A stretch of 64,000 nucleotides of DNA from a virus (taxonomy: Duplodnaviria > Heunggongvirae > Uroviricota > Caudoviricetes): positions 69,058 to 133,057 of IMG/VR virus record IMGVR_UViG_2910903598_000005. One strand, given 5' to 3'. Position numbers and translations under genes: made by a program. Of the stretch, positions 1 through 61,745 are shown piece after piece. Under the pieces are notes generated by a model. It saw nothing but the letters and a program-made list of their open reading frames with translations, searched no databases and had not been told where the DNA came from. Numbering within the stretch: position 1 is the first letter of the stretch; each line of letters starts with the position of its first letter.

Positions 1-35
1 CTTTCTTTCTTCATTTTCTTTTTAAGCATATTGGT

Positions 36-73
36 ATTTTAACATACTTTTTGCACCTTGTCAACGGGTGCAA
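36..73 (-). promoter_or_regulatory. Leftward sigma70-like promoter embedded in palindromic operator TTGCACC-N9-GGTGCAA
   Basis: Minus strand reads TTGACA (rc of 59-64), a 17-nt spacer, then TAAAAT (rc of 36-41). The element is flanked by the inverted repeat TTGCACC (51-57) / GGTGCAA (67-73). It is nearly identical to the operator-promoter at 22794-22831. It transcribes out of the window start. Confidence 0.45.
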
Positions 74-119
74 TGAGGGAAGTTAGTCATATTTTTATCT
101 GGGTAGAATGTAATTTTCT

Positions 120-800
120 TTATACTGGATTCTGTACATTTAGAAGAGCTTTTCGTGGGGGAATTTCCATTCTATTGGTAAATTGGTATTGTTGGTAGTG
201 GAAAGGTATAAAATTGATTTATGATCTCTCAGGTGTATTTTTTCATAGGAAATACCATTGTACTTTTTCACGTACAATATATGCTGGCGCAGATAATGGT
301 CTTTTCAATGTAAAGTGTACCCCCTATGCGGTATGAGTGTGTGATATAGGTCATGTGTGCAATTACTTAGTGTACATTTTCAATGTTTAGATGAGAAATC
401 TGGTACTAATTTCCATTTTATATGTTTTGGCGATAACTTGTTAGGGTACGATAGTAGAATTAAAATTTGCTCTCTCAGAGTACATTTTTTAAGGGTATAA
501 TGAAGAGATATTTTTGTCTTAGATCTAAGATGTGTTGTGGCAGATATCTGATTTGGGAATCTGCTGCATGATGGTAGGTGTTGATTATATGTGATTCTCA
601 ATGTTTAGAAGAGTATATCCGTCAAATATGGATTTTGTGGTATGTTATGGAGAGTTGTTAAGGTAGACAGGTAAAATGGATTTATGATTTGTAGAGTGCG
701 ATTTTTTATAGGGTTGAATGAGAGATAAATTTTTGCATAAAAATAATCCCTGCTTACAAGGCTGAGTGTCTGATTGATAGATTGCTTGTGTTCACTATCT
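120..800. repeat. Three degenerate direct repeats of about 220-230 bp (approx 120-340, 375-600, 598-800)
   Basis: Blocks recur: aatgtttagA(a/t)GAG..., then ggta(t/a)aaa(t)tgatttatgat.t.t.agagtg..tttttt.atAGGg, then atgaagagata. The region has no ORF with a ribosome-binding site. Confidence 0.45.
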
Positions 801-1601
801 GTCACAAATCTGGTTGATAGCTCAAGGGATTCCATCTTATAAAATGTTTTGCCTTGCGAGGGATTGTTTTTATTGATACATGGAATACATTGAATGTTCT
901 TGTTCAATGCCATATATATGATTATATCATGTAAGATATTTTATTGCAATGAGAGATTGTTAGTTGTAAAAAATATGCCCAGAGAAATTTCCCTGAGTAT
1001 AAATTCTAATAATGCATTTGCCGATACATTATCTGGGAGTGTCAACTTGAACCCATTAATATCTTTTGTTGTGTCTGTTTTGGCATAGATGCCGAGGGTT
1101 GCCTAATCTCTCAATGGAAGTATAACATGATCTGCTAAGAAATGGAAGCGTGTAAGTGATATTACCTGCGGTAGCAATGTCGAGAAGGAACGCTGACGCT
1201 TATCCTGTCTCTCCTAAACTGCGCAATAAATTGCTTGTTTACTTGGGATAAGAGAGAAGAGGTAATTGTTGTTTTCTTTAGTGTTTATATGTGGTTTCTT
1301 GTAATTTATATATTTTTGTGCATGTCTTTGTTGAGAACCTTCGATATAGGGTGTCACCAATTTCGTAGGCAAAATGGTTAAAGGTATAGTGATTATAAAG
1401 AAAAAGTGACGATTATTTTGTGCGATTGATTGTGGAGATAAAATCGGTTTCGGGCATGATTGATTGAATTTATACATTTTTCTGGGAGTAATTTTGTGCA
1501 AAGGTTGAGATGTGATTTGTGTAGGGATTTACTGGGATTTGTGAGGGTATTAATTGTCAAAATCGTGCTTCGAGAAGAGCCAAAAATCATGTTTCGATAA
1601 A

Positions 1602-1636
1602 TTGTGTAAAACTGTGTAAAATCTGATGTGAAAAAT
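1602..1636. promoter_or_regulatory. Tandem TGTGTAAAA motif (ttgtgtaaaactgtgtaaaat plus a degenerate third copy), a putative regulator site
   Basis: The same twin motif, ttgtgtaaaaagtgtgtaaaat, recurs at 12565-12586 immediately upstream of the hicA promoter. Confidence 0.3.
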
Positions 1637-2049
1637 ATAAGGAATTACTTAGGTTTTTGAGGGCAAAACTTGCATGAAATGGCGCAAAACAAAAACGTGT
1701 CGTCGAGAGAATTGGGGAAAATAAAGGGGAAAATGGGGCTGATTTTTTGAAAAAGTGCGATTTTTGAAAGAAGGGGTTCTGAGAGCGTTGAAAAAAGAGT
1801 AGTAAAATAAACGATTCGCTCGACGACGCCTCCGAAGACATGTTTTCAATTAGCAGAAAGTGTTTATCTAGGAAAGTGTAGGAAATTGCTTGGGAAAGTG
1901 ATGATTTTGTGACAGTGGGTCGAAAAATTTTAGTTGACACGGTGATTGAACACGTCTGTCTAAAATGACAGTTATTTCCAATTATGTAAATGTAAACCTA
2001 CCCCCGCTTTTTGATCTGGTGGTATAAAAATTACATGGTTAAAATTGTA

Positions 2050-2090
2050 AAAATCTATTTGAAATACTATAATTTTATCAAATAGATTTT
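2050..2090. repeat. Perfect 13-bp inverted repeat AAAATCTATTTGA / TCAAATAGATTTT with a 15-nt spacer
   Basis: Read directly: arms at 2050-2062 and 2078-2090. Confidence 0.6.
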
Positions 2091-2259
2091 GTAAATGATT
2101 GTAAATAATTTATAGACAGATCAGGATCAGGAGTGCAAATAATTTCCAACTATTTCCATATAGTATTCAAAACTACATGATAGTGTATCAGATGCTGTAT
2201 AATGTAATATGGTTTACGACGTGTCGTAGTATTCCAAAATAGGACTACTACTTTGCGAC

Positions 2260-2940
2260 TATTTACACAACAGTTGTTGTTTATCATACACTTGTCTATT
2301 ATCCAACACTTTTACATAATGTGTTGGATAGTCTATCCACGCCATCAATACAAAATAAAACTTCACACCACACCACACTAGCAAAACAATATTTTCTTTA
2401 TCACTCACAACAAACCTATAACTTAACTCTATACCAAACCATCCACCCATAGCTTTTATCTATACCACTTGACAGCACAGCCAAACCATGCTACACTACT
2501 AAGCAAACAAGTGTTCGATGTTTGGCAGACTTCCAGCACTTGCAACAAATACACAAATTAAAATATAAACTAAACAAATTAATATATAGCAATCATACAA
2601 GATCAAGCTATCATACATAAATAAATACATATACAAACATAACACGATAGTATATCTTATACTACCACATTAAACTAGATCCAAACTACTATAACTATAC
2701 AAGTGCATATAATAGCATAACATATAACTATACACCATATACACCTATGACATAATATAGATATAGTACATATACATAATACTATATAAGTACACCTACG
2801 GCATAGACAATCATTATATACCAAACTATATCACATATACTCATATATTATATTAATAATACTGTTATATACGTGTTCCTTCTATATAATACAAATAATC
2901 TTTGCATACTTATATTCTAAAGCATTTAAACGACTGTATA
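2260..2940. other. G-depleted, C+A+T-rich tract of about 650 bp with strong strand skew, rich in ATAC/ACATA repeats. Candidate replication origin, terminal region or non-coding RNA locus.
   Basis: The top strand is almost free of G over several hundred bases (for example ccacaccacactagcaaaacaatattttctttatcactcacaacaaacc). Only short spurious ORFs occur. Confidence 0.4.
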
Positions 2941-2975
2941 AGTGTTTATAGGTGCATACGGCAGAGTAAACAGCA

Positions 2976-3227
2976 TTATTGATCTTTGCTGGTGTTATCT
3001 GTATTATCTTTTTGTTTTGGTATAATGTCTAATACTATCTGACCATCAACAGCATTTACATAGTTTAAAAGGGTATTTATAGTCATACTGTTTTTTCCTT
3101 TTAATGTACGACTTACTCCGCTATCTTTTAAATTTAATGCTTTACAAATATCTACTTGTGTATGCTTAGTATTTTTCATATACATTTTAAATAGTGTTAA
3201 GATATCATCTTGTGTATTAATAATCAT
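2976..3227 (-). CDS. XRE-family helix-turn-helix transcriptional regulator (CI/Cro-like repressor)
   Basis: 83 aa. Classic HTH stretch QVDICKALNLKDSGVSRTLKG. Minus-strand ribosome-binding site AAAGGAAG 9 nt upstream. Divergent from operator-bearing promoters. Confidence 0.7.
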   Translation of the reverse strand: MIINTQDDILTLFKMYMKNTKHTQVDICKALNLKDSGVSRTLKGKNSMTINTLLNYVNAVDGQIVLDIIPKQKDNTDNTSKDQ

Positions 3228-3246
3228 ATATTTTTACTTCCTTTTC

Positions 3247-3277
3247 TATATAATAAGTAGCTAACAAAAATGTTAAG
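3247..3277 (-). promoter_or_regulatory. Promoter of the repressor gene (minus strand: TTAACA, 18 nt, TATATA), overlapped by operator copy O1 ctAACAaaaaTGTTaag
   Basis: The -10 is the rc of 3247-3252 and the -35 is the rc of 3271-3276. The operator at 3261-3277 shares the CTAACA-N4/5-TGTTAA half-sites with O2 and O3. Confidence 0.45.
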
Positions 3278-3284
3278 ATTTTTC

Positions 3285-3313
3285 TTGACTTATCCTAACA
3301 AATATGTTAATAT
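3285..3313 (+). promoter_or_regulatory. Rightward promoter P1 (TTGACT, 17 nt, TAATAT) with operator O2 cCTAACAaataTGTTAAt in its spacer
   Basis: TTGACT at 3285-3290, TAATAT at 3308-3313. The imperfect palindrome CTAACA-N4-TGTTAA lies at 3294-3311. Confidence 0.55.
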
Positions 3314-3402
3314 AATAACTGTGATAAGGATATCACATAAATAAATATTGATTATATCTTAACACAAGATATAAAAGGTTTCAAGATAAAACAAAAAAGT
3401 TC

Positions 3403-3431
3403 TTGACAAAACCTAACAAATATGTTAAGAT
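3403..3431 (+). promoter_or_regulatory. Rightward promoter P2 (TTGACA, 17 nt, TAAGAT) with operator O3 cCTAACAaataTGTTAAg in its spacer
   Basis: TTGACA at 3403-3408, TAAGAT at 3426-3431. The flanking sequence ttcttgac...cctaacaaatatgttaa is a near-exact duplicate of P1. Confidence 0.55.
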
Positions 3432-3439
3432 ATAAACAA

Positions 3440-4239
3440 GTTAAGAGATAAGCCACTAAGGGCAAGGATAACAACCGATACTTGAAACCTTGACTTAACC
3501 GCTAATCAATTAACAAGTAACTTATAATCAGACTTTCAAAGGAGTTGAAAAAAATCTATACAATTTAATACATCACTCATTAAGATATGAGTTACTTAAG
3601 TAAAGAAAAAAGAAGATTGCTACAGTCGTGATGATTGCAACAACCTTCATAAGATATTGATATACCTTTACTTCGCAACTAAAGTATATCAAAAATCATT
3701 CTTTGGTGTCAAGTTTCTTTTGGCACATTTCCCAAACGGCTATACACAATTTCAAAGGCTGGTTACGCAAGAAGTAACCAGGGTTGGTTGCATCACCCTA
3801 AAGAGTGAAGCGAAATACGTGTGAACCCTATGATTAATTAGTTGGATCTAAGCCAAAGTATTAACGGCATTCATAGTTCGTTTGAGAAAATCACGCCACG
3901 TTGAAAAAGTAGACACTTATTAGAAGCAACATAGACTTAACATTGTACGGAATGACTAAGCACATAATAACAAGACTTTATACACCTTGTATGTGCTGAT
4001 TAAATCTTTTTTGAATAAAACATCATAGCCAAAGATTAACAATGAATCAACCAGTTATAAAGCTGGTTAAGATATCATAATTCTTTTATAGGTCGATGAT
4101 GGGGTACAAATTAACGCCTTGCATGGTATGCACTCGAAAGACAAGCCACTGTCCATGACACTGTTATTTGTATCCATTCATGAACTTATAAAAAATCCAG
4201 CCTTGAAAAGCTGGTCGTAGTGATAGGAGGTAAACAACT
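3440..4239 (+). ncRNA. Long leader or candidate non-coding RNA region downstream of P1/P2, carrying three ACCAG/CTGGT stem-loops
   Basis: No ORF of 60 aa or more with a ribosome-binding site. Hairpins: CTGGTTACgcaagaaGTAACCAG (3749-3773), AACCAGttataaagCTGGTT (4049-4070), CCAGCcttgaaaaGCTGG (4196-4215). Confidence 0.25.
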
Positions 4240-4422
4240 ATGAAAAGAATGAAATACTATATTGATTATGTCGATAAAAAAACAAATGTGGAACATTCGA
4301 CTAGTTTTGAAACAAAAATTGAATGTTGGGCTTTTATTCGAAAGAATGAAAAGGATATTCATTTAACTAAAAAACCATATACAAGTGAGTTTCTTGATTG
4401 GTTTTTTAGTGAAGGAATATAG
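4240..4422 (+). CDS. hypothetical protein (60 aa)
   Basis: ATG with ribosome-binding site GGAGGT 8 nt upstream. Confidence 0.5.
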   Translation: MKRMKYYIDYVDKKTNVEHSTSFETKIECWAFIRKNEKDIHLTKKPYTSEFLDWFFSEGI

Positions 4423-9264: not shown

Positions 9265-10017
9265 ATGAAGTACAAAGAACTTATTATGACAGAACAATCT
9301 ACTGGAAAGAAAACGGTGCTTTATGAGAATGAAGAGTTCAAGAACTTTGATTATCTAAGTAATCTTATGATGAAGTATGGGTATAGCGAGAATGATTATG
9401 AAAACCTTAATGATGATATTATGAGTGGAATTGATCACTTTGATGTTATGGAATATGGAAACACAATCGAAACACTTTTATTTGAATATATTAAATATCC
9501 TGAGTGCTTTGAGATCCATAAGATTCCTGAAATGCCTGATGGATTTACAAAAATCACTTATCATGGTTATACAATCAAATTAAATCAATATAACTGTGAT
9601 TGGTACTACGGGAAGAGTTCTGACGGAAGTTTATGTGTGACAAGCACTAAGTACGATTGGAAAAAATACGACAAGATCAAGATACTAGTACAACGTGATT
9701 ATTACGGAAAATTTGAAGAAGAATGGTGGAATATTGTTGACGACAACGGAAATCTTATAGTAAAAATCATGGATGATGATATGGAAAAAGCTGTCGCAGA
9801 TATTAAAGATAATCGTGATCATGCAATGGATTTTGAAGATTGGCTATTATCAACCGATGCAGAAAAGTGGGACGTTGAATGGACTCAAGAAAATTATGAT
9901 AAAGATAGGGCAGATGAGATTATCAGAAATGCTTATAATGACTACCTTAATATGCACTGGAAATATTCATGGTTGGTTAGAATAGTAGCGGAAAATATGA
10001 TCAAGAAGGGAATGTAG
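9265..10017 (+). CDS. hypothetical protein (about 250 aa)
   Basis: ATG in context GGATGGTGGAAATTATG. Long ORF. Confidence 0.6.
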   Translation: MKYKELIMTEQSTGKKTVLYENEEFKNFDYLSNLMMKYGYSENDYENLNDDIMSGIDHFDVMEYGNTIETLLFEYIKYPECFEIHKIPEMPDGFTKITYHGYTIKLNQYNCDWYYGKSSDGSLCVTSTKYDWKKYDKIKILVQRDYYGKFEEEWWNIVDDNGNLIVKIMDDDMEKAVADIKDNRDHAMDFEDWLLSTDAEKWDVEWTQENYDKDRADEIIRNAYNDYLNMHWKYSWLVRIVAENMIKKGM

Positions 10018-10027
10018 GTGGTAAATT

Positions 10028-10306
10028 ATGTTTGATTATGAAAGAAAAGAATTTGAAAAGAATGTGGAAATTTTAATGGAAGATCGTTGTACACGAAAAG
10101 AAGCGGAACGATTGTTAAAAAATAGCACAGTAGTATATGAATTGAAAGATTTTACAGAACATTTTGGTCAGTTTATGGAAGATTGGCAAGAAGACAAGGA
10201 AGGAATTGAAGCATATAAGAAGATGCTTGAAACTAAAAAACCGATGAGTGGATATAGTTTTGTAGAATATAATGGAAAAGAATATTTGATTAATTATTGT
10301 TTATAG
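10028..10306 (+). CDS. hypothetical protein (92 aa)
   Basis: Ribosome-binding site GTAGGTGG. Confidence 0.5.
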   Translation: MFDYERKEFEKNVEILMEDRCTRKEAERLLKNSTVVYELKDFTEHFGQFMEDWQEDKEGIEAYKKMLETKKPMSGYSFVEYNGKEYLINYCL

Positions 10307-10341
10307 ACTAACGGAAAATTAAATAAAAACAAAGTAATCTA

Positions 10342-10371
10342 GGAAGATGCAGAAATGTATCTTCCTTTTTT
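10342..10371 (+). terminator. rho-independent terminator
   Basis: GGAAGATgcagaaatgtATCTTCC followed by TTTTTT. Confidence 0.7.
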
Positions 10372-10397
10372 GATGGAAAGAAACGAGGTAAGAACGA

Positions 10398-10685
10398 ATG
10401 AAAGTTAGTAAAGAAGAGTACGAAAGATTAGATTTTGAGGACTTTGTGGAAAAATTAAAACCACAATATGACACATTATGTAGCTTAGAAGATATGAAGA
10501 ACGCTTGCGTTGATGCAGTTAACGTGATGGAAGTTAGCCTTGCAATTCATATACTGGAACCGATTGAAGAGTACGGAGTGTGGTATTACGACTATGATCG
10601 AGAAAAGGGTATGCAGTATGTACCGCAACCACTATCACAAAAAGAAGATCTTGTGAAAGCTGGATACTTAGAACTGGTCGGATAA
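10398..10685 (+). CDS. hypothetical protein (95 aa)
   Basis: Ribosome-binding site AACGAGGTAAG. Confidence 0.5.
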   Translation: MKVSKEEYERLDFEDFVEKLKPQYDTLCSLEDMKNACVDAVNVMEVSLAIHILEPIEEYGVWYYDYDREKGMQYVPQPLSQKEDLVKAGYLELVG

Positions 10686-17083: not shown

Positions 17084-17440
17084 ATGAATATATTAACATT
17101 AAAAGGGAACGGAAAATCTAAATTTCTCAGTGATTTTATTGATAGTTCTCGATCAGAAAAATGTTTTGTAATCATATTTGAAGATGAAAATATTTCTCGC
17201 AGTCTGTTTTCAAGATGTGATAATTTTATTTTAGATGATTCGCAGAGCATTAAAGAGGAAATGGAAAAATATTTAGGAATTGTTGAGAATTGGAGTGACA
17301 AACTGGAATATTTAATAATATATAGTATAGATAAATCCGAAAAAGATATGATCAATTTGGATGTATATTATTTATTAAATCAGGTTAAAGATCAACCGTT
17401 CTTTAAAGAGCTAACTTGCATTGTAGCTTGTAAGAAATAA
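17084..17440 (+). CDS. hypothetical protein (118 aa)
   Basis: Ribosome-binding site GAAGGAGTG. Confidence 0.5.
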   Translation: MNILTLKGNGKSKFLSDFIDSSRSEKCFVIIFEDENISRSLFSRCDNFILDDSQSIKEEMEKYLGIVENWSDKLEYLIIYSIDKSEKDMINLDVYYLLNQVKDQPFFKELTCIVACKK

Positions 17441-17464
17441 AGGAATTAAAAAGGAGTGTTTAAA

Positions 17465-17959
17465 ATGGAAAAATCTAAAGCATATACATCAGAAAAACCA
17501 TATATGTGTGTTTATGAAACAAAAGAGGATGGAATTGGTTATGCGACATTTGACAACGAAGAGGCTTTAATGGAATTGTTAAATGAGTGCAGAGAAAACG
17601 GAGATAAGATTTTAGATGCCTGCAAGGTTGAGGATCGTTATGAATTCAAAGATGGAAAATTTGAGTCTAAATATCAAAGAATGTATGAATATGCAGTCAT
17701 TAAAGCGATCAAAGATAAGCATAAGGAATTATGTAATAAATTAAGAAAAGTAATTAATGAAAGGATCGCTATAGAAGAAAAACTAGCAGATACAAACATG
17801 CCGTATCAAAAATATATGCATTTATTGCGTGAGAAAGAGGATATTGAAAAAAAAGAAGAAAAGTTAAGTCAGAGGAAACAAATCGTAAGAGATATGTTAG
17901 ATGTCTGCTATGAAGCGGTATGGGAATGTGATGATCATATAGATAAAATGAAACTTTGA
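17465..17959 (+). CDS. hypothetical coiled-coil protein
   Basis: ATG after AAAAGGAGTG. The GTG at 17456 is an alternative start. Confidence 0.5.
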   Translation: MEKSKAYTSEKPYMCVYETKEDGIGYATFDNEEALMELLNECRENGDKILDACKVEDRYEFKDGKFESKYQRMYEYAVIKAIKDKHKELCNKLRKVINERIAIEEKLADTNMPYQKYMHLLREKEDIEKKEEKLSQRKQIVRDMLDVCYEAVWECDDHIDKMKL

Positions 17960-17979
17960 TAGAAAGGAAGAGGAAATAA

Positions 17980-18708
17980 ATGGAAAAAAATATTAGAAAA
18001 GAAGGAGATTATGAAATCTCAGAAAATGCACTTGGGACATCATATAAACACCCATCATTTGGTATGTTGTCATTTAGCCGTACTCATGGTGGACATAGTA
18101 ATTTATTTGGTAGTAGTATTCAGCATAATGATACAATTCATATGGTGTTGAGAGAAGGAAAGGTCACTAGAGGATTAAATGATGATTGGTATGTTGGAGA
18201 AGATGAGATTCTGGAAGTAGAAATGTCGCAATCACAATTTGCGGAATTAATTACTTCTATGAATGTTGGAACAGGTACTCCATGTACTATTAAATATTTA
18301 CGTGGTAAAGGACGTATTAACGAAGCGGATTTTATCAATAAAAGACAGCAGATAACAAATGAATTTAAAGAGTCTATGAACGAGCGTATGAGCGATGCAA
18401 AAGAATTTTATGATGAAGTCAAGGAGCTTTTTACTACGAAGAAATCTATTGGAAAAGGCGATCGAGAAATGATTCTGAGAAGACTTGCCAACGTGACTCA
18501 AGGTATGGAATCTAGTTCAAAATTTATCTTTGATCAATTCCAAAATCAGATAGACAAAACAATTACAGAAGCTAAAGGAGAAATCGAGGCTTTTGCACAG
18601 AATAAAATTAATGCAATAGCTCAACAGGCTCTTGTAGAACAGAAAGAAGATATTTTAAAATTAGAGAATCCTGTTGATGTAAATCATATGGAACTTGATG
18701 AAGAATAA
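17980..18708 (+). CDS. hypothetical protein (242 aa)
   Basis: Ribosome-binding site GAAAGGAAGAGG. Confidence 0.55.
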   Translation: MEKNIRKEGDYEISENALGTSYKHPSFGMLSFSRTHGGHSNLFGSSIQHNDTIHMVLREGKVTRGLNDDWYVGEDEILEVEMSQSQFAELITSMNVGTGTPCTIKYLRGKGRINEADFINKRQQITNEFKESMNERMSDAKEFYDEVKELFTTKKSIGKGDREMILRRLANVTQGMESSSKFIFDQFQNQIDKTITEAKGEIEAFAQNKINAIAQQALVEQKEDILKLENPVDVNHMELDEE

Positions 18709-20372: not shown

Positions 20373-20669
20373 ATGAAATTATACGGAACAGTGAATACAG
20401 AGGTTGATGTGAGTAAATATAATATATTAATAGCTGCGGCTCAAATACTATACGATGGACATCTATATGATAGTTGGGGAATTCATACAGAGTTATTGGA
20501 GTCAGATCATAGAGAAAATAACACTGGTAAAAGAGCATTATTTAAGGTTGAAGATATATCATATCATGGTTCCCCAGTATGGAAATATACATTGATTACT
20601 GACGATGAAAATGCAATAAATGATTTTCTGTTGGCACAGGAAATAGAAAAAGTAATTAAGAGAGTGTAA
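20373..20669 (+). CDS. hypothetical protein (98 aa)
   Basis: ATG after AGAGGAGATTGG. The track ORF begins at an upstream ATG without a ribosome-binding site. Confidence 0.45.
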   Translation: MKLYGTVNTEVDVSKYNILIAAAQILYDGHLYDSWGIHTELLESDHRENNTGKRALFKVEDISYHGSPVWKYTLITDDENAINDFLLAQEIEKVIKRV

Positions 20670-20695
20670 GAATAATTAAGAGAGGAGAGATTATC

Positions 20696-21646
20696 ATGGC
20701 AGCAACACAGTTTGAAGTTATTAAAACAGCAAACAATAATAACGCAGAAGAACCTGAAGCAAAGATCAAAAGACGTAAGGACGGAAATCCTAAATGGACT
20801 CGATCTAATAAACAAAAAGGCGTATCATCTTTAGTGTATCCAATTAAGAACAAAGAAAAATTTGCAGCCTTTAATGCATATTTTAGAGACCAGATTGATA
20901 AATCGTACACAGAGTACAAACGATATGTAGCTGCCAGAAACAATCTTTTGGTTGCAGTTGGAAACAATACAGCATATCGTATCTCTGATATCGTCAGACT
21001 CAAATGGGGCGATTTATTAGACGATAAGACTCGTAAGCAGGAAAAGAAAACAAAGAAATTCAGAACTGTATACTTTAACGATTTGGTAACTGAAGCAGTG
21101 GATATTTTCTTTGAAGCTGTTGCAGGAACTAAATATGATGTCAAGATTGATGGCGAAGTGCCAATGGATGATTATGTTTTTGGAACATGTAAGTCTGGAT
21201 CAGGACACATGACTGAAGCAAATGCTTTGGATTTTGTTAAAAAAGGTGCTAAAGCAGTTGGAATTGAGGACAATATTGGTACGCATACATTACGAAAGAA
21301 CTTTGTGTATTGGACACTTGTCGATCATAAAGATGATCAGAACGTATTGTATACACTTATGAGATTATTGAATCATAGTAGCCCTGCAATGACGTTTTTA
21401 TATGCTACAATTACAGAAGAGGAAACTCATGTGTTATTTGATGATATTGCTCAGACGTACAAGGATATTATCAGCGGAGCATTTAACGGATTAAAGGAAA
21501 ATGTTATTAATGTGAGTTATGATAGAGTTATGGAGATTATCAAGTGTGCTTATGAGACTGGTAAGGATGATGCAGATCAAAATGATAGGGTACATGAGGA
21601 CAATATGCAGGCACTAAAAGAGCTGCTGGAAGGAGTTATTTTATGA
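20696..21646 (+). CDS. tyrosine site-specific recombinase (XerC/D-like phage integrase family)
   Basis: Catalytic-domain motifs present: Arg in YRISDIVRLKWGDL, HxxR in GTHTLRKNF, and LLNHSSPAMTFLY with the Tyr nucleophile. Ribosome-binding site GAGAGGAGAG. Confidence 0.7.
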   Translation: MAATQFEVIKTANNNNAEEPEAKIKRRKDGNPKWTRSNKQKGVSSLVYPIKNKEKFAAFNAYFRDQIDKSYTEYKRYVAARNNLLVAVGNNTAYRISDIVRLKWGDLLDDKTRKQEKKTKKFRTVYFNDLVTEAVDIFFEAVAGTKYDVKIDGEVPMDDYVFGTCKSGSGHMTEANALDFVKKGAKAVGIEDNIGTHTLRKNFVYWTLVDHKDDQNVLYTLMRLLNHSSPAMTFLYATITEEETHVLFDDIAQTYKDIISGAFNGLKENVINVSYDRVMEIIKCAYETGKDDADQNDRVHEDNMQALKELLEGVIL

Positions 21647-33625: not shown

Positions 33626-33763
33626 GGAAACATAGCTCAGTTGGTAGAGCAGGCAATACATAAACATTCATTTTTCTACCTCCATATAAGTATTTTTATT
33701 TATTTACATTTAATTTTCATCACATATAAATTGCCGACACAGGTTCGATTCCTGTTGTTTCCA
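33626..33763 (+). tRNA. tRNA-like gene interrupted by an insertion of about 75 nt in the anticodon loop (identity undetermined)
   Basis: Perfect 7-bp acceptor stem GGAAACA/TGTTTCC. D-arm GCTC-AGTTGGTA-GAGC. Anticodon stem GGCAA ... TTGCC separated by about 74 nt. T-arm ACAGG-TTCGATT-CCTGT. Discriminator A. Terminator immediately downstream. Confidence 0.55.
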
Positions 33764-54684: not shown

Positions 54685-55713
54685 ATGTTAGACAATATAA
54701 AAAAAGAACTATTGTCTAATCCTGAAAAAATAAGAGAAGTCTTGGAGCATTTTGATTATTGTCATGTAGTGATCAGAAACACATATATGTCATTTGGTCG
54801 AGATGAGGTCTCTTCAAAGAAGTCCATAGTAATCAATCTGAAAAATAACAAAGCGTTGTTTGTGCATGATTATGCTAGAGCAATCCAAAAAGATTTGTTC
54901 TCATATATTATGCAGCAACGTGGAGTTGATTTTGCAGAGGTTTTAGGAGTTGTTAAAAACATCTTAGGGATTACTGATTACTATGATTTCTTTGATAGAC
55001 AAGGTATTTTTGGCGGATTTTATGAAAGGATTAGAAATCACAATGTAGTTCGAATCCAAACTTATGATGAATCTATATTAGATAAATACAATAATGTAGG
55101 GAATTTAAGATTCCTTAAAGATAATATATCACTTGAAGCACAAAGAACTTTTGGCATTCGGTTTGATACATCATCTCAAGGGATCGCAATTCCGATTAGA
55201 AATCAATTAGGACAACTAATTGGTGTAAAAGAAAGATTTAACTATGATGTTGAAGATGGTGAAATGAAATATTTCTACGATGTTCCGTGTCAAATGTCTC
55301 AAACATTATATGGATATTCTCAGAATTATCAGTATTTAGCCAACGGTGTTGTGTTGATATTTGAGGCAGAGAAATCTGTAATGCAGTGTTTTACATATGG
55401 AATTAGAAACTGTGTGGCACTTGGCAGTGGAACAATCAGCAAGAAACAGGTGCAATTATTATTGGAATTAAATCCTAAAAAAGTAATATTTATGCATGAT
55501 GTTGGCTATGATATTGAGAATATTATGAGAAATATTGACATGGTAAAAGGATACTCAAGATTTGCTGAGATTGAGTTAGGATACTGGGACTTTAATTTAA
55601 GTGAGTATTCCAATAAGGTATCACCGTCCGATATGGGAAAAGAAAAGTTAAATTACATATTAGAAAACGAAATAAAAATGATAGGGGATGAAGACGTCGA
55701 AGAAGAAATATAA
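54685..55713 (+). CDS. DNA primase (DnaG-like, Toprim domain)
   Basis: Toprim region FEAEKSVMQCFTYGIRNCVALGSGTIS...VIFMHDVGYD (E ... DxD). Confidence 0.6.
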   Translation: MLDNIKKELLSNPEKIREVLEHFDYCHVVIRNTYMSFGRDEVSSKKSIVINLKNNKALFVHDYARAIQKDLFSYIMQQRGVDFAEVLGVVKNILGITDYYDFFDRQGIFGGFYERIRNHNVVRIQTYDESILDKYNNVGNLRFLKDNISLEAQRTFGIRFDTSSQGIAIPIRNQLGQLIGVKERFNYDVEDGEMKYFYDVPCQMSQTLYGYSQNYQYLANGVVLIFEAEKSVMQCFTYGIRNCVALGSGTISKKQVQLLLELNPKKVIFMHDVGYDIENIMRNIDMVKGYSRFAEIELGYWDFNLSEYSNKVSPSDMGKEKLNYILENEIKMIGDEDVEEEI

Positions 55714-57307
55714 CATTTTGAACGATTGCAGAGGACTTTTTGAAGATGAGGTGTTTGAAATTATCATGCAGGAGCGTGGTATTGACGATCCAGAGCATTT
55801 TCTAAATCCTACGGAAGATGATTTACTTTCTCTTGATGACTTAAAAAATATTGATAAAGCATATAAGCTTTTGGTAGATGCAGTATACAAAGATAAACGT
55901 ATTGCAGTACATTTTGACACAGATACTGACGGAGTTGCAGCGGGAACTATTATTACACGACATTTAAAAAACATGACAGAAAATCCAGTAGATGTATACA
56001 TTAACCGAGGCAAACAGCATGGATTAGCAAATCAGGACATTGCTAAGTTTTATGGGTATGATTTACTGATTGTCGTTGATAGTTTGGATAAAGACGAGAC
56101 TCAGTATAAGGATTTAAAAGAAACAGGAGTTGATGTGATTGTGTTAGACCACCATGCCATCGATCCAGATGTTCCTTATGACAACTATTGCACATTAGTT
56201 TCTTCTCAGAGAGAATATGAAAATCCACAGCTATCTGGCGCAGGTGTTGTTTGGAAGTTTTGCAAGTATATTGATGAGCAGAATGGTACAGATTATGCAG
56301 ATGATTTGGTCGATCTAGCAGGTGTTGGGCTGATTGCAGATATGATGGATATGAGAGTAATGGAGAATCGTTACATTGTATCCGAAGCTTTGAAAGAAAT
56401 TAGAAATCCTGCGATTAAGAAGATTATTGGTGGATTTGAATTCAACAGCACAGCAGTTGCTTTTAGTATTGCACCGTTGGTTAATGCTGCAAACAGAATG
56501 GATCAGAATGAAATTGCCCTAAATGCTTTCCTTGAAGACGACAATAAAAAGTTACGAGGATATATTAAACAGTTAAAGCAATGCAAAGAAGACCAAAATG
56601 AAGAGGTCGCACAGCTGATGCCAATGATTGTGGAACAGTGTGAAGCTCAGAGTTATAAAAAGATGATCACAACTTTTATCGACACTGATTATGGTATTTC
56701 TGGGTTAATTGGAAACAAATTGCTTGAAAAATACCAGAAGCCGATTCTTGTGCTAAAGAAAAATGAAGATACATATGCAGGATCTATGCGAGCAGTTGGT
56801 GTAAAAGACTTCCGACAGATGTGTAATAACAGTCAGTTGGCTGAAGCAAATGGACATGAACTTGCCAGTGGTATTGAAATTCCTAGAAAGAACTTCGCTG
56901 AGTTCACCTCTTATATAGAAGAAACTCTTTCAGATAAGCCAGAAGATACAACAGTTGATGTCGATATTATGCTTGATATTTCAGACATCACAAGAAAAAT
57001 GGTTGACATGATTAAGAAAATTGATCGTATTTCTGGACAAGGATTTAAACCTGTAAGAGTTTATATTGAAGAGATTGACGACTATGACATTGGTCAGATG
57101 AGCAATTATAAACATCTTGTCCTGAAACCATGTAACAATGATAAATTGTGGATCATTAAATGGAACTACGATGGATCATTTGAGGATATGGAAGACCACT
57201 CTATGATGAATGATGAATTTTGTGCTGTAACTACTCTTGATTGTGGATTCTTTGGCAGAAAGTTTGTGCTGAAAGCAGTGTGTGATTCACTTGAAGAGGT
57301 GGGATGA
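55688..57307 (+). CDS. RecJ-like single-strand DNA exonuclease (DHH/DHHA1)
   Basis: Motifs IAVHFDTDTDGVAAG, VIVLDHH and distal GSMRAVGV/ANGHELASG. Confidence 0.7.
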   Translation: MKTSKKKYNILNDCRGLFEDEVFEIIMQERGIDDPEHFLNPTEDDLLSLDDLKNIDKAYKLLVDAVYKDKRIAVHFDTDTDGVAAGTIITRHLKNMTENPVDVYINRGKQHGLANQDIAKFYGYDLLIVVDSLDKDETQYKDLKETGVDVIVLDHHAIDPDVPYDNYCTLVSSQREYENPQLSGAGVVWKFCKYIDEQNGTDYADDLVDLAGVGLIADMMDMRVMENRYIVSEALKEIRNPAIKKIIGGFEFNSTAVAFSIAPLVNAANRMDQNEIALNAFLEDDNKKLRGYIKQLKQCKEDQNEEVAQLMPMIVEQCEAQSYKKMITTFIDTDYGISGLIGNKLLEKYQKPILVLKKNEDTYAGSMRAVGVKDFRQMCNNSQLAEANGHELASGIEIPRKNFAEFTSYIEETLSDKPEDTTVDVDIMLDISDITRKMVDMIKKIDRISGQGFKPVRVYIEEIDDYDIGQMSNYKHLVLKPCNNDKLWIIKWNYDGSFEDMEDHSMMNDEFCAVTTLDCGFFGRKFVLKAVCDSLEEVG

Positions 57308-59717: not shown

Positions 59718-61745
59718 ATTGACCTAAATGTAGCTACTCAGGAGCCATTTGTGAAAGCTGCAAAAAAACTTCTTGGAGAGCATGGATGTTATCCGTTAAT
59801 GGCTATAGAAAAGTTAAAAGAGAAAGCAGCATGGCAATTATATGCTGGAGCTAATGATGTTAGTTCAGAAGATGCAAATAGAATTTCAAAATATCTTGAT
59901 GATTATAATAAAGCATTGAAATATGCTGATGAAGAAGATAAAGATTTTATTCATGTTGAAGACTACATTCCAGAAGAATATGTTGATTTATTTAAACAAA
60001 GCAATGAGTACCAAGGAATCACTATCAATCTAAAAGTACATGCTTGTGGACATTTTATATTCGACGGAGATATTCGTAGAGAAGTAGGATTAATTAGTGC
60101 TGTTTCAGAAACGACTGGGAAAAGAACAATTTGTGCCGCCATTGAAGGTGGCTATCTTGATGAATTTGGATATGTAAAAGAAGATTTTCTTATTGTAGAT
60201 AGTGTTTATCTTACATATAAATTTTTTCACAGTATAGGAATGGAGGTTCCTACATCTGAAGAACTGAGAGAGATGATAGAAGGAGATCATAAAACATGGG
60301 ATATTTATGCAAAAGGAATTACTTGTTGTGTTAACCAATGTGAAAAAGAAGCGACAACAAATAGAGCAAAGAAATATAAGCCACAAAATTTAGCAGAATT
60401 AAGTAGTTTCATTGCTGCAATTAGACCAGGATTTGCATCTTTATTAAATACTTTTTTAAATCGTGAACCATATTCAACAGGCGAAAAGAAAATTGATGAG
60501 TTGTTACAAGATACAGCACATTTTATGATTTATCAAGAGTCAATTATGAAGGTATTATCTTTCCTGCAATTGAAGATGGGCGAAACGTATGGAGTTATTA
60601 AAAATATCTCGAAAAAAAAATATAAAGCTCATCCTGAAAAGTTAAAAGAACTGAAAGAAAGATTAAAAGATGGTTGGCAAATTGAAATTGGAGAACTTAA
60701 TAATTTCAATAATATATGGGAAGTTATAGACTCATCAGCTTCGTACGCCTTCAACTCTCCGCATGCTTGGTCGATGGCTGAGGATTCTGCCTATCAGGCA
60801 TGGTTTAAAGCTCATTATACGAAAATGTTCTATGAAGTAGCAATTAATCATTACCAAGAAAAAAATAAGAAAGATAAAATTGATGCTCTAGTAAAAGAAG
60901 CCATTAAATTTTGGGGATATAAATTGGGAGATTATCGGTTTGGAGCAGACAATAGAAAAGTCACGATTGATGAAGAACATAAAATTATATATCCCAATTT
61001 ATCAAGCATTAAAGGATTTGGAGAAGGTGTCGCCAATTCACTATATGATTTAGGACAGGCTAAATACAGCTCATTCATAGAAGTAATCAATGTATTAAAG
61101 CAGAATCATCTCAATAAAACAGTGATAGACAAATTAATTAAAATTAATTATTTTGTAGAGTTCGGAGATGCGAATACCTTATTAGAAACAGTTAAATATT
61201 ATGAATTATTAAATGGGAAAAAGCAATTGTCCAAAGAAAAGGCGATAGAATATCACATTTCTTCTGATTTACTTTTGAAGTATGGTCATGAGACAAAAAC
61301 ACTTTATAATCAATTAGATTCAGAACAATTACTTATTGAATCTATAAAAAATATTCCATACAGAGAATTGTCTTTGAAAGAAAAATTAGACAATCAGAGA
61401 AATGTTCTCGGAATTGTAAGCTATGCTAACGTAAAAGTTAATAAACGATTATATTATGTTTCAGATCTTGATGTTAAAAAATCCATCGTTAACATTCAGT
61501 TATATGAAATTTACTCTGGAAAAACACAGAAAGTAAAAATGTGGACAAACCAATATAAGAAGAACCCATTCGATGAAGGAGATATTCTATATCTGAAATC
61601 AGTTGAGAAGAAACATAAAAAAGAACCAACTGGGGAGATCAATACAAAAACAGGAAAGAAAATCTACAAAGATGTGCCAGATAAATTTGAGTTTTGGCTT
61701 AAGAATTTCACTATTAAAAATGACGTAGAGGAGGAATTAGTATAA
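59718..61745 (+). CDS. DNA polymerase III alpha subunit, exon 2 (palm/fingers core); the 5' boundary is a hypothesis
   Basis: ASYAFNSPHAWSMAEDSAYQAWFKAHYTKMF matches the Pol III alpha FNKSHAAAY...LKAHYP motif. The frame is open from 59691 (IDLNVATQ... could continue MPD-IDL). The track start is GTG 59751. Confidence 0.6.
   Translation: MDLNVATQEPFVKAAKKLLGEHGCYPLMAIEKLKEKAAWQLYAGANDVSSEDANRISKYLDDYNKALKYADEEDKDFIHVEDYIPEEYVDLFKQSNEYQGITINLKVHACGHFIFDGDIRREVGLISAVSETTGKRTICAAIEGGYLDEFGYVKEDFLIVDSVYLTYKFFHSIGMEVPTSEELREMIEGDHKTWDIYAKGITCCVNQCEKEATTNRAKKYKPQNLAELSSFIAAIRPGFASLLNTFLNREPYSTGEKKIDELLQDTAHFMIYQESIMKVLSFLQLKMGETYGVIKNISKKKYKAHPEKLKELKERLKDGWQIEIGELNNFNNIWEVIDSSASYAFNSPHAWSMAEDSAYQAWFKAHYTKMFYEVAINHYQEKNKKDKIDALVKEAIKFWGYKLGDYRFGADNRKVTIDEEHKIIYPNLSSIKGFGEGVANSLYDLGQAKYSSFIEVINVLKQNHLNKTVIDKLIKINYFVEFGDANTLLETVKYYELLNGKKQLSKEKAIEYHISSDLLLKYGHETKTLYNQLDSEQLLIESIKNIPYRELSLKEKLDNQRNVLGIVSYANVKVNKRLYYVSDLDVKKSIVNIQLYEIYSGKTQKVKMWTNQYKKNPFDEGDILYLKSVEKKHKKEPTGEINTKTGKKIYKDVPDKFEFWLKNFTIKNDVEEELV

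What the first reader, a model, noticed from the sequence alone, without database searches (positions are those of the whole stretch)
2260..2940. Extreme strand-asymmetric G-depleted tract (~650 bp) adjacent to the repressor/operator region
What the sequence shows: the top strand is C/A/T-rich with almost no G over hundreds of bases. It is packed with ACATA/ATACA-type short repeats and has no ribosome-binding-site-bearing ORFs. It is flanked by palindromes at 2218-2229 (ACGACGTGTCGT) and 2292-2322 (CCAACAC...GTGTTGG).

Inference, candidate functions:
- origin of replication or iteron region;
- packaging (pac/cos) neighbourhood or genome terminus;
- template for a purine-poor non-coding RNA.

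Such a clean skew is unlikely to be neutral.
Basis: seen in the sequence. Interest (0 to 1): 0.55.

Follow-up and report, generated by a model that had tools for sequence, protein, structure and literature searches.

The report
Strand-skewed spacer beside a phage genome end
The G-poor stretch is real and is most likely the non-coding spacer just inside one physical end of a large SPbeta-like phage genome, paired with a mirror-image stretch on the other side of the end/packaging site, a layout also present in three phages whose ends have been mapped experimentally.

Summary
Window 2260-2940 has 7.2% G on the top strand, against 20.8% window-wide. It is the only 600-nt stretch below 8% G, it is non-coding, and 41 related genomes keep it at 6.3-9.6% G.

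It is one half of a mirror pair. Positions 60-1960 are non-coding and C-poor on the same strand. A skew-neutral, conserved core (about 2040-2289) lies between the two.

Related contigs show a YonO-type RNA polymerase and an HU gene just left of the window, which is SPbeta-like synteny. SPBc2, Goe12 and Perkons have the same layout: G-rich tract, then a roughly 250-bp neutral core, then a G-poor tract. In those phages the core is the mapped genome opening/pac block or a PhageTerm-defined 264-bp terminal repeat. Five metagenomic contig ends fall at window 2148-2289.

So the tract is most likely a sub-terminal spacer. It also holds a strongly conserved sigma-A-type promoter (2469-2497) that reads inward.

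- The origin/iteron reading is not supported.
- The ACATA-type repeats are explained by dinucleotide composition.
- The cause of the skew is not settled. I favour a link to single-stranded 3' tails at the genome ends.
- The mirrored flanks are not mentioned in the SPbeta and Perkons papers I read.

The parts
36..64 (-). Promoter-like site (TTGACA-N17-TAAAAT with TG) in front of the first leftward gene. That gene's ATG is at window 29-27 and it leads the operon that contains the YonO-like RNA polymerase.
   Evidence: 11 of 12 match; the reverse complement of window 1-29 encodes MLKKKMKKER, the start of the L001 132-aa ORF.
60..1960 (+). Mirror partner of the tract: 1.9 kb of non-coding DNA that is C-poor and G+T-rich on the top strand (A .295, C .114, G .237, T .355). 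Proposed right-end sub-terminal spacer.
   Evidence: It is non-coding: variable sites are spread evenly over codon positions and there are frame-breaking indels.
2040..2289 (.). Skew-neutral, AT-rich core, conserved mainly over 2040-2160. Proposed packaging/terminal-repeat core; its boundaries are approximate. It contains the 13+13 palindrome at 2050-2090 and the small inverted repeat at 2216-2227.
   Evidence: Skew is about 0. Conservation is 0.89-0.99 over 2040-2160 and falls to 0.71-0.87 over 2180-2289. Contig ends fall at 2148, 2231, 2258, 2289 and 2289. It occupies the same position as the SPbeta pac block and the Perkons DTR.
2300..2330 (.). Hairpin palindrome TATCCAACAC-N11-GTGTTGGATA at the core/tract boundary.
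   Evidence: Conservation is 0.90-0.92.
2290..2940 (+). The G-depleted tract. Proposed left-end sub-terminal spacer.
2340..2465 (+). Hypervariable C/A-rich sub-tract (G 2.4%, C 31.7%). Its sequence and length vary between genomes, but the G poverty is kept.
2469..2497 (+). Sigma-A-type promoter with extended -10: TTGACA-N17-(TGn)TACACT.
   Evidence: The hexamers, the TG and the 17-nt spacing are invariant in 43 sequences (22 haplotypes); all variation is in the spacer and at the n position.
2498..2700 (+). Conserved start of the predicted G-poor transcript, with a 5' hairpin at 2508-2542.
   Evidence: Conservation is 0.91-0.99. Fold z is -2.2. The G-to-A change at 2536 in 8 genomes turns a U.G pair into U-A.
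2976..3227 (-). 83-aa helix-turn-helix regulator gene. It sits in the yonR-like position but points toward the terminus.
   Evidence: Variable sites by codon position are 1/1/24.
3261..3431 (+). Three operator-like repeats, CTAACAAATATGTTAAGAT. The two at 3295-3313 and 3413-3431 overlap the two rightward promoters (3285-3313, 3403-3431); the one at 3261-3279 lies just upstream.
   Evidence: Identity across genomes is 99.8%.

Best explanation
The tract is the non-coding spacer that lies just inside the left physical end of the virion DNA of a roughly 160-kb phage. This phage's packaging and late-transcription module is SPbeta-like.

Proposed layout on the circular map:
- the operon containing the YonO RNA polymerase, transcribed leftward;
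- 1.9 kb of C-poor spacer (60-1960);
- a neutral core of about 250 bp (about 2040-2289), which is cut by terminase and probably duplicated as a short direct terminal repeat;
- the G-poor spacer (2290-2940);
- the HTH regulator and its operators, then the early genes, transcribed rightward.

In linear DNA this layout means that the strand ending 3' at either terminus is C-poor and G+T-rich for several hundred nucleotides inside the repeat.

Most likely mechanism (inferred). These are the stretches left single-stranded as 3' tails. The tails would arise when the ends are resected, or left unreplicated, so that the terminal repeats can anneal to circularise the genome or form concatemers. The phage encodes a RecJ-like 5'-3' exonuclease that could do the resection. 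Single-strand exposure of only one strand on each side would then create the bias (C-to-T and A-to-G deamination), select for it, or both. The repeat itself is exposed on opposite strands at the two ends, so it stays unskewed.

A second function sits on top of this. The tract carries the terminus-proximal early promoter (2469-2497). By analogy with the SPbeta packaging direction, this is the end packaged last and therefore ejected first.

Shown: the composition, the non-coding status, the conservation, the synteny, the shared layout in mapped phages, and the promoter's conservation pattern. Inferred: the exact ends in this phage, the single-strand mechanism, and the order of DNA entry.
For: Synteny.
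- Related loci show a YonO-like RNA polymerase 3-6 kb left of window position 1 (43% identity to SPbeta YonO, 48% to phage D-1873), followed by an ORF I read as HU-like from its sequence and its position after YonO (no Pfam hit).
- This matches yonP-yonO-yonN in Goe12 and SPBc2.

Shared layout in mapped phages.
- SPBc2: G-rich tract at 3150-3531 (skew up to +0.74), neutral block at 3532-3782, G-poor tract at 3783-4000.
- Goe12 is the same. Its neutral block is exactly the ~250-bp fragment that Kohm et al. mapped from virion reads as the genome opening point/pac (bioRxiv 10.1101/2021.11.22.469490, sections 18 and 24 and supplement section 11).
- Perkons has PhageTerm-defined 264-bp terminal repeats (PMC13245101; record features). 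Skew is +0.4 to +0.67 just before the right repeat, -0.3 to -0.65 after the left repeat, and neutral in the repeats.
- The start and end motifs of the Perkons repeat resemble those of the SPbeta block.
- All six tracts have 5.5-11% C on the 3'-ending strand.

This phage.
- Five contig ends, from at least two samples, fall at window 2148-2289. Two independent ends are at exactly 2289.
- The RecJ-like exonuclease is at 55688-57307.

Weak support for a strand-specific pressure.
- GC3 skew of the + strand genes is lower in the 5.5 kb next to the tract.
- Polymorphic sites per base are higher for top-strand T-to-C than for A-to-G (0.43 against 0.28).

Promoter.
Against: - No virion read data exist for this phage. 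The ends are inferred, and contig ends can cluster for assembly reasons.
- The core shares no alignable sequence with the SPbeta or Perkons repeats beyond a TACCCCC word.
- The strong mirrored skew is not general to short-repeat phages. T7 shows it only at the left end. SP6 does not show it, and phiKMV shows it only faintly. A universal mutational process therefore cannot be the whole story.
- Compared with four-fold sites (C .09, G .125), the main anomaly is enrichment of G on the 3'-ending strand. Cytosine deamination alone does not produce that.
- In Perkons only the 550 nt nearest the repeat, out of a 1.38-kb non-coding region, are skewed.
- The least-structured single strand is the G-poor 5'-ending strand, not the 3' tail.
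- The polymorphism test for selection against mutation was inconclusive.
Confidence: 0.5

Rival explanations
1. The skew serves RNA. The tract is mainly the template of a G-poor, C-rich, unstructured early leader or non-coding RNA started at the conserved promoter (2469-2497). Such RNA is a good loading site for Rho. It could attenuate, or insulate against, transcription that runs inward from the terminus region and antisense through the HTH gene. The mirror tract would do the same for transcripts heading to the YonO operon.
For: - The promoter hexamers, the TG and the spacing are invariant in 43 genomes while the spacer varies.
- Positions 2498-2700 are 91-99% conserved, with a structure-preserving change in the 5' hairpin.
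- The G-poor strand is among the least structured 1.4-3.3% of 300-nt windows.
- C/G is about 3.
- No + strand terminator was found between 1971 and 4433.
- A small RNA, ncr1052, on the same strand as yonP, was detected in the SPbeta yonR-yonP gap (PMC2965217).
- Thomasclavelia phage TR-TP1 has 1 kb of sense-strand G-poor non-coding DNA upstream of its YonO operon.
Against: - About 180 nt of the tract, including its most G-depleted part (2340-2465), lie upstream of the promoter.
- In SPBc2 and Goe12 the skewed tracts lie between the repeat and the sigma-70-like promoter matches I read just upstream of yonR and yonP. Those promoters would not transcribe them (my reading of the sequence).
- In Perkons the skew tracks the repeat boundary, not the gene start.
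- There is no Rfam match.
- I could not place ncr1052 relative to the tracts.
Confidence: 0.22
2. The two skewed tracts are recognition arms for the packaging machinery. They would be binding arrays for the small terminase subunit, like pacL and pacR of SPP1, and would set the cut positions and the direction of packaging.
For: - The tracts abut the mapped block or repeat boundaries in SPBc2, Goe12 and Perkons.
- T7 has sub-terminal short-repeat arrays next to its repeat, with a G-poor left array.
- The core and parts of the tract are conserved.
Against: - No repeated binding word is enriched in the tract, and no k-mer is shared across the six tracts beyond AT-rich words.
- The part next to the core (2340-2465) is the most variable in sequence and length.
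- Packaging is unidirectional, so a dyad-symmetric compositional pattern is not what it would predict.
Confidence: 0.12
3. The region is a replication origin. Transcripts reading toward the core would be G-rich and would form R-loops that prime DNA synthesis, or iterons would bind an initiator.
For: - Outward-reading RNA on both sides would have GC skew of about +0.5, which favours R-loops.
- The core is AT-rich (27-31% GC) and carries palindromes.
- A 285-aa protein with a weak winged-helix hit is encoded nearby.
Against: - There are no iterons.
- The skew switches from + to -, which is the polarity of converging forks, not diverging ones.
- Skew in the rest of the window follows gene direction.
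- No initiator homology was found.
- The homologous core in relatives is mapped as a DNA end, not an origin.
Confidence: 0.06
4. The tract has no function. It would be decayed remnants of old genes in opposite orientations, or a chance composition carried along by close relatedness.
For: - The 44 genomes are closely related (88-95% identity).
- The non-coding spacers vary in length.
Against: - The same polarity and layout recur in Bacillus and Psychrobacillus phages with no detectable nucleotide similarity.
- Coding strands in this phage are A-rich and G-rich. The tracts are T-rich and G-rich on the corresponding strand, so they do not look like decayed genes.
- The composition is kept through indels and sequence replacement.
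Confidence: 0.05

Closest known systems
Genome opening point / pac block of SPbeta-like Bacillus phages (yonR-yonP intergenic region; Fink and Zahler 1982 as cited, Kohm et al. bioRxiv 10.1101/2021.11.22.469490)
   Same: - The map position is the same: between an HTH/early-gene side and the yonP-yonO-yonN operon.
- The layout is the same: G-rich tract, a skew-neutral core of about 250 bp, then a G-poor tract, in the same polarity.
   Different: - No alignable sequence is shared with the window.
- The spacers here are much longer: 1.9 kb and 0.65 kb, against about 0.4 kb and 0.25 kb.
- The HTH gene points toward the terminus, whereas yonR points away.
- The skewed flanks are not mentioned in the parts of that paper I read.
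Short direct terminal repeats of Psychrobacillus phage Perkons (264 bp, PhageTerm; PMC13245101, MT325768.1)
   Same: - It is a YonO-plus-HU phage.
- The repeats are unskewed and flanked by mirror-skewed non-coding DNA.
- The repeat end motifs resemble those of the SPbeta block.
   Different: - The ends of the window's phage are not mapped.
- In Perkons the skewed stretches are shorter (about 370-550 nt), and the left one starts about 130 nt inside the repeat.
T7 sub-terminal short-repeat arrays (SRL/SRR) next to the 160-bp terminal repeat (names recalled from Dunn and Studier 1983, not checked here)
   Same: - Non-coding DNA directly inside the left repeat is A/C-rich and G-poor (skew -0.5 at 151-300).
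- It lies ahead of the first early promoters.
   Different: - T7 has a tandem heptamer-like word (CCTAAAG); the window tract has no enriched word.
- The T7 right end is not mirrored.
Strand asymmetry of vertebrate mitochondrial DNA (G+T-rich heavy strand and A+C-rich light strand, attributed to deamination while single-stranded; from general knowledge)
   Same: The type of composition is the same: one strand A+C-rich with very low G, the other G+T-rich. The proposed cause is also the same: exposure of one strand as single-stranded DNA.
   Different: - Here the bias is local (0.3-2 kb), mirrored around a DNA end, and found in a phage.
- No measurement of single-strand exposure exists for this phage.

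Membership tests
SPbeta-like terminus / packaging region | Lies in the non-coding gap between the early/HTH side and the yonP-yonO-yonN (RNA polymerase and HU) operon | tested here: met
   - A YonO homologue (43-48% identity) followed by an ORF I read as HU-like from its sequence and position (no Pfam hit) lie in L001 just left of the window.
- The order is the same in Goe12, SPBc2 and Perkons.
SPbeta-like terminus / packaging region | A defined DNA end or short direct terminal repeat (about 250-264 bp), seen as a coverage step or read starts in virion DNA | not testable with these tools
   No reads are available. The only indirect evidence is five contig ends at window 2148-2289, two of them at exactly 2289.
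SPbeta-like terminus / packaging region | Sequence motifs of the block/repeat: GCTnnGGGT at the start, TATACCCCC about 50 nt in, and GGGAAT..AAG at the end | tested here: not met
   Goe12 and Perkons share these motifs. The window has only TACCCCC at 2001-2007, and the alignment is unconvincing.
SPbeta-like terminus / packaging region | An unskewed core flanked by G-rich and then G-poor non-coding tracts (a feature defined here) | tested here: met
   Window. SPBc2. Goe12. Perkons.
Iteron-type replication origin | Three or more direct repeats of a 17-22-bp word, and an adjacent initiator gene | tested here: not met
   - Only weak 2-3-copy matches were found.
- No k-mer is enriched over the Markov expectation.
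- No initiator homology was found.
Replication origin (skew criterion) | Top-strand GC skew switches from negative to positive at the site | tested here: not met
   The switch near 2230 goes from positive to negative.
T7-type sub-terminal short-repeat arrays | A tandem array of a short conserved word next to the terminal repeat | tested here: not met
   The T7 CCTAAAG array is visible. No such word occurs in the window tract.
Known RNA family (Rfam) | A covariance-model match at or near the gathering score | tested here: not met
   There is no hit in 1-4300 except a chance MicF match (23 bits against a gathering score of 79) outside the tract.
Rho-loading (rut-like) leader | An untranslated, unstructured RNA with C well above G for 80 nt or more downstream of a promoter, with termination that depends on Rho | tested here: inconclusive
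   Composition and low structure are met downstream of the 2469-2497 promoter. Dependence on Rho cannot be tested here.

The most novel reading that the evidence does not exclude
The mirrored C-depletion of the 3'-ending strands is a selected end device of SPbeta-like phages and is loosely telomere-like. On this reading, G+T-rich, C-free 3' tails just inside the short terminal repeats are built to load a recombinase or annealing protein, and to resist cytosine deamination. They would drive repeat annealing, and so circularisation or concatemer formation. A consequence is that physical genome ends of this phage group could be read from sequence alone, as an unskewed core between mirror-skewed spacers.
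Probability: 0.2. Interest if true: 0.8.

Novelty: new variant of a known kind. Interest (0 to 1): 0.55.

Why it matters
Phage genome ends and packaging sites are normally found only with virion read data, so they are unknown for almost all metagenomic phages.

If the signature holds (mirror-skewed spacers around an unskewed core of about 250 bp), it gives three things:
- a sequence-only marker for the physical ends of SPbeta-like, YonO-encoding phages, including uncultured gut phages of about 160 kb;
- support for the view that the SPbeta "250-bp block" is a short terminal repeat homologous to the one in Perkons;
- a testable idea about how short-repeat genomes process their ends.

It also identifies a strongly conserved candidate first early promoter and a regulator/operator module for this gut phage group.

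Tried and rejected
- **Hidden coding under a reassigned stop codon.** Rejected: all three stop types occur in all six frames.
- **The - strand ORFs at 380-1940 as genes.** Rejected: variable sites are spread evenly over codon positions and there are frame-breaking indels, against 1/1/24 for the HTH gene.
- **Simple mirror of the genome's neutral composition.** Rejected: four-fold sites are A .447, C .09, G .125, T .338.
- **Iterons or ACATA repeats.** Rejected.
- **MazF-decoy idea (UACAU).** Only 4 TACAT, no enrichment.
- **Chi-site array.** B. subtilis Chi (AGCGG, from memory) is absent from all six tracts, and a C-free strand cannot carry a motif that contains C.
- **G-quadruplex tails.** On my reading of the sequence there are too few G runs in the window tract.
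- **Nucleotide homology to known phages.** None for window 1-4200. The HTH protein and the 285-aa protein have no tblastn hits.
- **Structured RNA on the - strand.** Fold z is -0.07.
- **The same layout near YonO in other phages.** Absent in Clostridium phage D-1873. Enterocloster CB473P1 and Thomasclavelia TR-TP1 were uninformative or only one-sided.
- **Generality in short-repeat phages.** T7 shows it at the left end only; SP6 and phiKMV do not show it clearly.
- **Selection against mutation from the polymorphism spectrum.** Inconclusive: polarising by the majority allele is weak, and the control region shows a similar excess of AT-to-GC changes among rare variants.
- **Placing the SPbeta small RNA ncr1052 relative to the tracts.** Failed: the single genome-collection scan returned B. 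rugosus, not strain 168.
Full report
**1. The observation**

Window 2260-2940 is A281 C148 G49 T203, so G is 7.2%. The window-wide mean G in 600-nt windows is 20.8% (sd 2.7%). The only 600-nt windows below 8% G lie at 2227-2965. It is also the only 1-kb bin with strongly negative GC skew (-0.29).

All six reading frames carry TAA, TAG and TGA, so no stop reassignment would make the tract coding.

The bias is uneven:
- 2340-2465 has 2.4% G and 31.7% C.
- 2466-2545 has normal G.
- 2546-2880 has 5.7% G.

Repeat finders give only weak 2-3-copy matches. The palindromes are real but sit at 2216-2227 and 2300-2330. The tract is G-poor, not purine-poor, because A is 41%.

**2. The surroundings**

Every ORF of 150 aa or more between 6.4 and 64 kb is on the + strand, apart from one 162-aa - strand ORF (20656-21144) that overlaps a longer + strand ORF. 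That strand is G-rich and C-poor throughout.

Immediately right of the tract lies an 83-aa HTH gene on the - strand (2976-3227). It shows strong purifying selection: variable sites by codon position are 1/1/24. Next come three operator-like repeats. Two of them overlap the two rightward promoters (3285-3313, 3403-3431) and the third lies just upstream.

Left of the tract, positions 60-1960 are also non-coding. The - strand ORFs there show substitutions spread evenly over codon positions, and frame-breaking indels. This block is the mirror image of the tract: it is C-poor and G+T-rich on the top strand (C 11.4%, G 23.7%, T 35.5%).

The two blocks meet at a skew-neutral, AT-rich core. The part of the core at 2040-2160 is 89-99% conserved across about 40 genomes and holds a 13+13 perfect palindrome at 2050-2090.

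**3. What phage this is**

Replication proteins match DNA polymerase, RecJ-like exonuclease and DnaB-like helicase families. One large protein is about 56% identical to proteins of Bacillus Bastille-like phages and of Clostridioides phage pCD1602_4.

Forty-three or more IMG/VR contigs of up to 169 kb carry the same region at 88-95% identity.

These contigs show that a leftward operon starts at window position 29. It is preceded by a strong promoter-like site running from 64 to 36. The operon encodes a 1004-aa protein that is 43% identical to SPbeta YonO and 48% identical to its homologue in Clostridium phage D-1873. YonO is the single-subunit RNA polymerase that transcribes SPbeta late genes (PMC5467207). 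The next ORF I read as HU-like from its sequence and its position after YonO, although Pfam gave it no hit.

This is the yonP-yonO-yonN arrangement of SPbeta-like phages.

**4. The same layout in phages with mapped ends**

*SPBc2.* The 952-nt yonP-yonR gap consists of three parts:
- a G-rich tract at 3150-3531, with skew up to +0.74;
- an unskewed 251-bp block at 3532-3782;
- a G-poor tract at 3783-4000.

*Goe12.* The layout is the same.

*What the block is.* It is exactly the fragment that Kohm et al. identified from virion reads as the genome opening point and pac region. They describe it as "precise and equal in size" in all isolates, with packaging running toward yonP and yonO (bioRxiv 10.1101/2021.11.22.469490).

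*Perkons.* This Psychrobacillus phage is also a YonO-plus-HU phage. It has PhageTerm-defined 264-bp direct terminal repeats (PMC13245101). Skew is +0.4 to +0.67 in the 550 nt before the right repeat, -0.3 to -0.65 at 400-770 after the left repeat, and about 0 inside the repeats.

*Link between the two.* The Perkons repeat and the SPbeta block share start and end motifs. I infer from this that the SPbeta block is a homologous short terminal repeat.

*Summary.* In all six tracts from the three lineages (the SPbeta group represented by Goe12), the strand that ends 3' at the nearby terminus has 5.5-11% C.

**5. Evidence in the window's own phage group**

Among the fetched contigs, five ends fall within 142 bp of one another in the neutral core:
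- Coming from the YonO side: 2258 (L070), 2289 (L065) and 2289 (L066, from a different sample).
- Coming from the early-gene side: 2148 (L038) and 2231 (L053).

Contigs from the two sides overlap across the core. That is what a terminal repeat, or a hard physical end, would produce.

This is indirect evidence. One other nearby end is an adapter artefact, and a few ends lie elsewhere (2474, about 3190, about 3255).

The core has no alignable similarity to the SPbeta or Perkons repeats. I therefore file the region as working like, and syntenic with, the SPbeta-type terminus. Sequence membership is not shown.

**6. What else is inside the tract**

A sigma-A-type promoter, TTGACA-N17-(TGn)TACACT at 2469-2497, is invariant in its hexamers, TG and spacing across 43 sequences. 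All 22 haplotypes differ only in the spacer and at the n position. The next 200 nt are 91-99% conserved. They begin with a hairpin (2508-2542) whose only common variant, G-to-A at 2536, turns a U.G pair into U-A.

The transcript would be G-poor and nearly unstructured. It would run antisense into the HTH gene. No intrinsic terminator is predicted before 4433, and there is no Rfam match.

By analogy with the SPbeta packaging direction, the tract's end of the genome would be packaged last. Under the usual last-in-first-out rule, which is general knowledge and not tested here, it would be ejected first. That would make this the first promoter to enter the cell.

**7. Why the strands are skewed**

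Four-fold degenerate sites of + strand genes are A .447, C .09, G .125, T .338. The tract is therefore not simply neutral DNA in the reverse orientation.

Several features point to a process that acts from the two DNA ends on the 3'-ending strand:
- The pattern has dyad symmetry.
- The unskewed part coincides with the repeat in the mapped phages.
- The length scale is 0.3-2 kb.
- The composition (A+C-rich against G+T-rich) resembles that of mitochondrial DNA.

The process could be resection, for which the phage encodes a RecJ-like exonuclease. It could also be incomplete lagging-strand synthesis before repeat annealing. A repeat present at both ends would be exposed on both strands, so it would stay unskewed.

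I could not separate mutation from selection:
- GC3 skew of + strand genes is lower in the first 5.5 kb (+0.05 to +0.07) than at 9-45 kb (+0.24 to +0.32).
- Per-site T-to-C changes exceed A-to-G changes on the top strand.
- G-creating variants are common but rare in frequency; the control region shows a similar trend.

Three results argue against a universal mutational cause:
- T7 shows the bias only at its left end, and SP6 and phiKMV show it barely or not at all.
- G is enriched on the tail strand, not merely C depleted.
- The least-structured strand is the G-poor one.

The RNA and Rho reading explains the promoter and the conserved 200 nt. It does not explain the parts of the tracts that lie upstream of the promoters in this phage, or upstream of the sigma-70-like promoter matches I read in SPBc2 and Goe12. 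A terminase-arm reading lacks any repeated word. An origin reading fails on iterons and on skew polarity.

**8. Verdict**

- The genome-terminus/packaging reading is supported by comparison with mapped relatives.
- The non-coding-RNA reading is partly supported.
- The origin/iteron reading is not supported.

The terminus region of SPbeta-like phages is known. The mirror-skewed spacers flanking it, conserved across Bacillus, Psychrobacillus and uncultured phages recovered from metagenomes without sequence similarity, are not mentioned in the SPbeta and Perkons papers I read, and a keyword search showed nothing obviously relevant among the listed titles and abstracts.

I rate this a new variant of a known kind. 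Interest is moderate: the signature could locate phage ends from sequence alone, and it suggests a testable mechanism for end processing.

Noticed in passing
L001:16039-19053 (about 3-6 kb left of window position 1, window - strand): A 1004-aa YonO-like single-subunit two-barrel RNA polymerase with an FDVDGD motif. It is 43% identical to SPbeta YonO and 48% identical to the Clostridium phage D-1873 homologue. It is followed by an ORF I read as HU-like from its sequence (no Pfam hit) and a 3D-domain protein. This phage combines the module with replication and other proteins whose closest matches are in Bacillus Bastille-like phages and Clostridioides phage pCD1602_4.
   Followed up: partly
window 120-735: Three degenerate direct repeats of about 230 nt (120-249, 376-516, 585-735) inside the C-poor non-coding block. 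Each contains promoter-like and ...CTCTCAG..ATTTTTT motifs. Their function is unknown.
   Followed up: no
window 2050-2090: A perfect 13+13 palindrome (AAAATCTATTTGA-N15-TCAAATAGATTTT) that is about 99% conserved in 39 genomes. It overlaps promoter-like hexamers on both strands. It is a candidate recognition or regulatory site in the proposed terminus core.
   Followed up: partly
window 3261-3431: Three copies of CTAACAAATATGTTAAGAT (inverted half-sites TAACA/TGTTA). Two overlap the two rightward promoters and one lies just upstream. The region is 99.8% conserved. It is probably the operator set of the adjacent 83-aa HTH protein.
   Followed up: partly
window 33626-33763: An Rfam tRNA match (46 bits) spanning 138 nt that ARAGORN does not call. 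It may be an intron-containing or otherwise unusual tRNA gene.
   Followed up: no
window 59751-61745: This DNA polymerase ORF matches only profile positions 459-1055 of the phage polymerase family. The polymerase gene may be split or interrupted, as in several SPbeta-like and Herelleviridae phages.
   Followed up: no
window 9706-10503 and 17416-18028: These are the only 600-nt windows with C below 8% on the top strand. Both lie in the + strand gene region, not at a terminus.
   Followed up: no
SPBc2 L077:3532-3782; Perkons L057:1-264: The SPbeta ~250-bp pac block and the Perkons 264-bp terminal repeat share start motifs (GCTnnGGGT ... TATACCCCC) and end motifs (GGGAAT..AAG). This suggests the SPbeta block is itself a short direct terminal repeat rather than only a pac site.
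   Followed up: partly
L071 (contig IMGVR_UViG_3300045988_133024), last 8 nt: The contig ends in AGATCGGA, the start of the Illumina adapter. That contig end is therefore an artefact.
   Followed up: yes
L003 and L005 compared with window 1274-2023: Two related genomes lack or replace about 750 nt of the C-poor spacer. The spacer's length is flexible while its composition is kept.
   Followed up: partly
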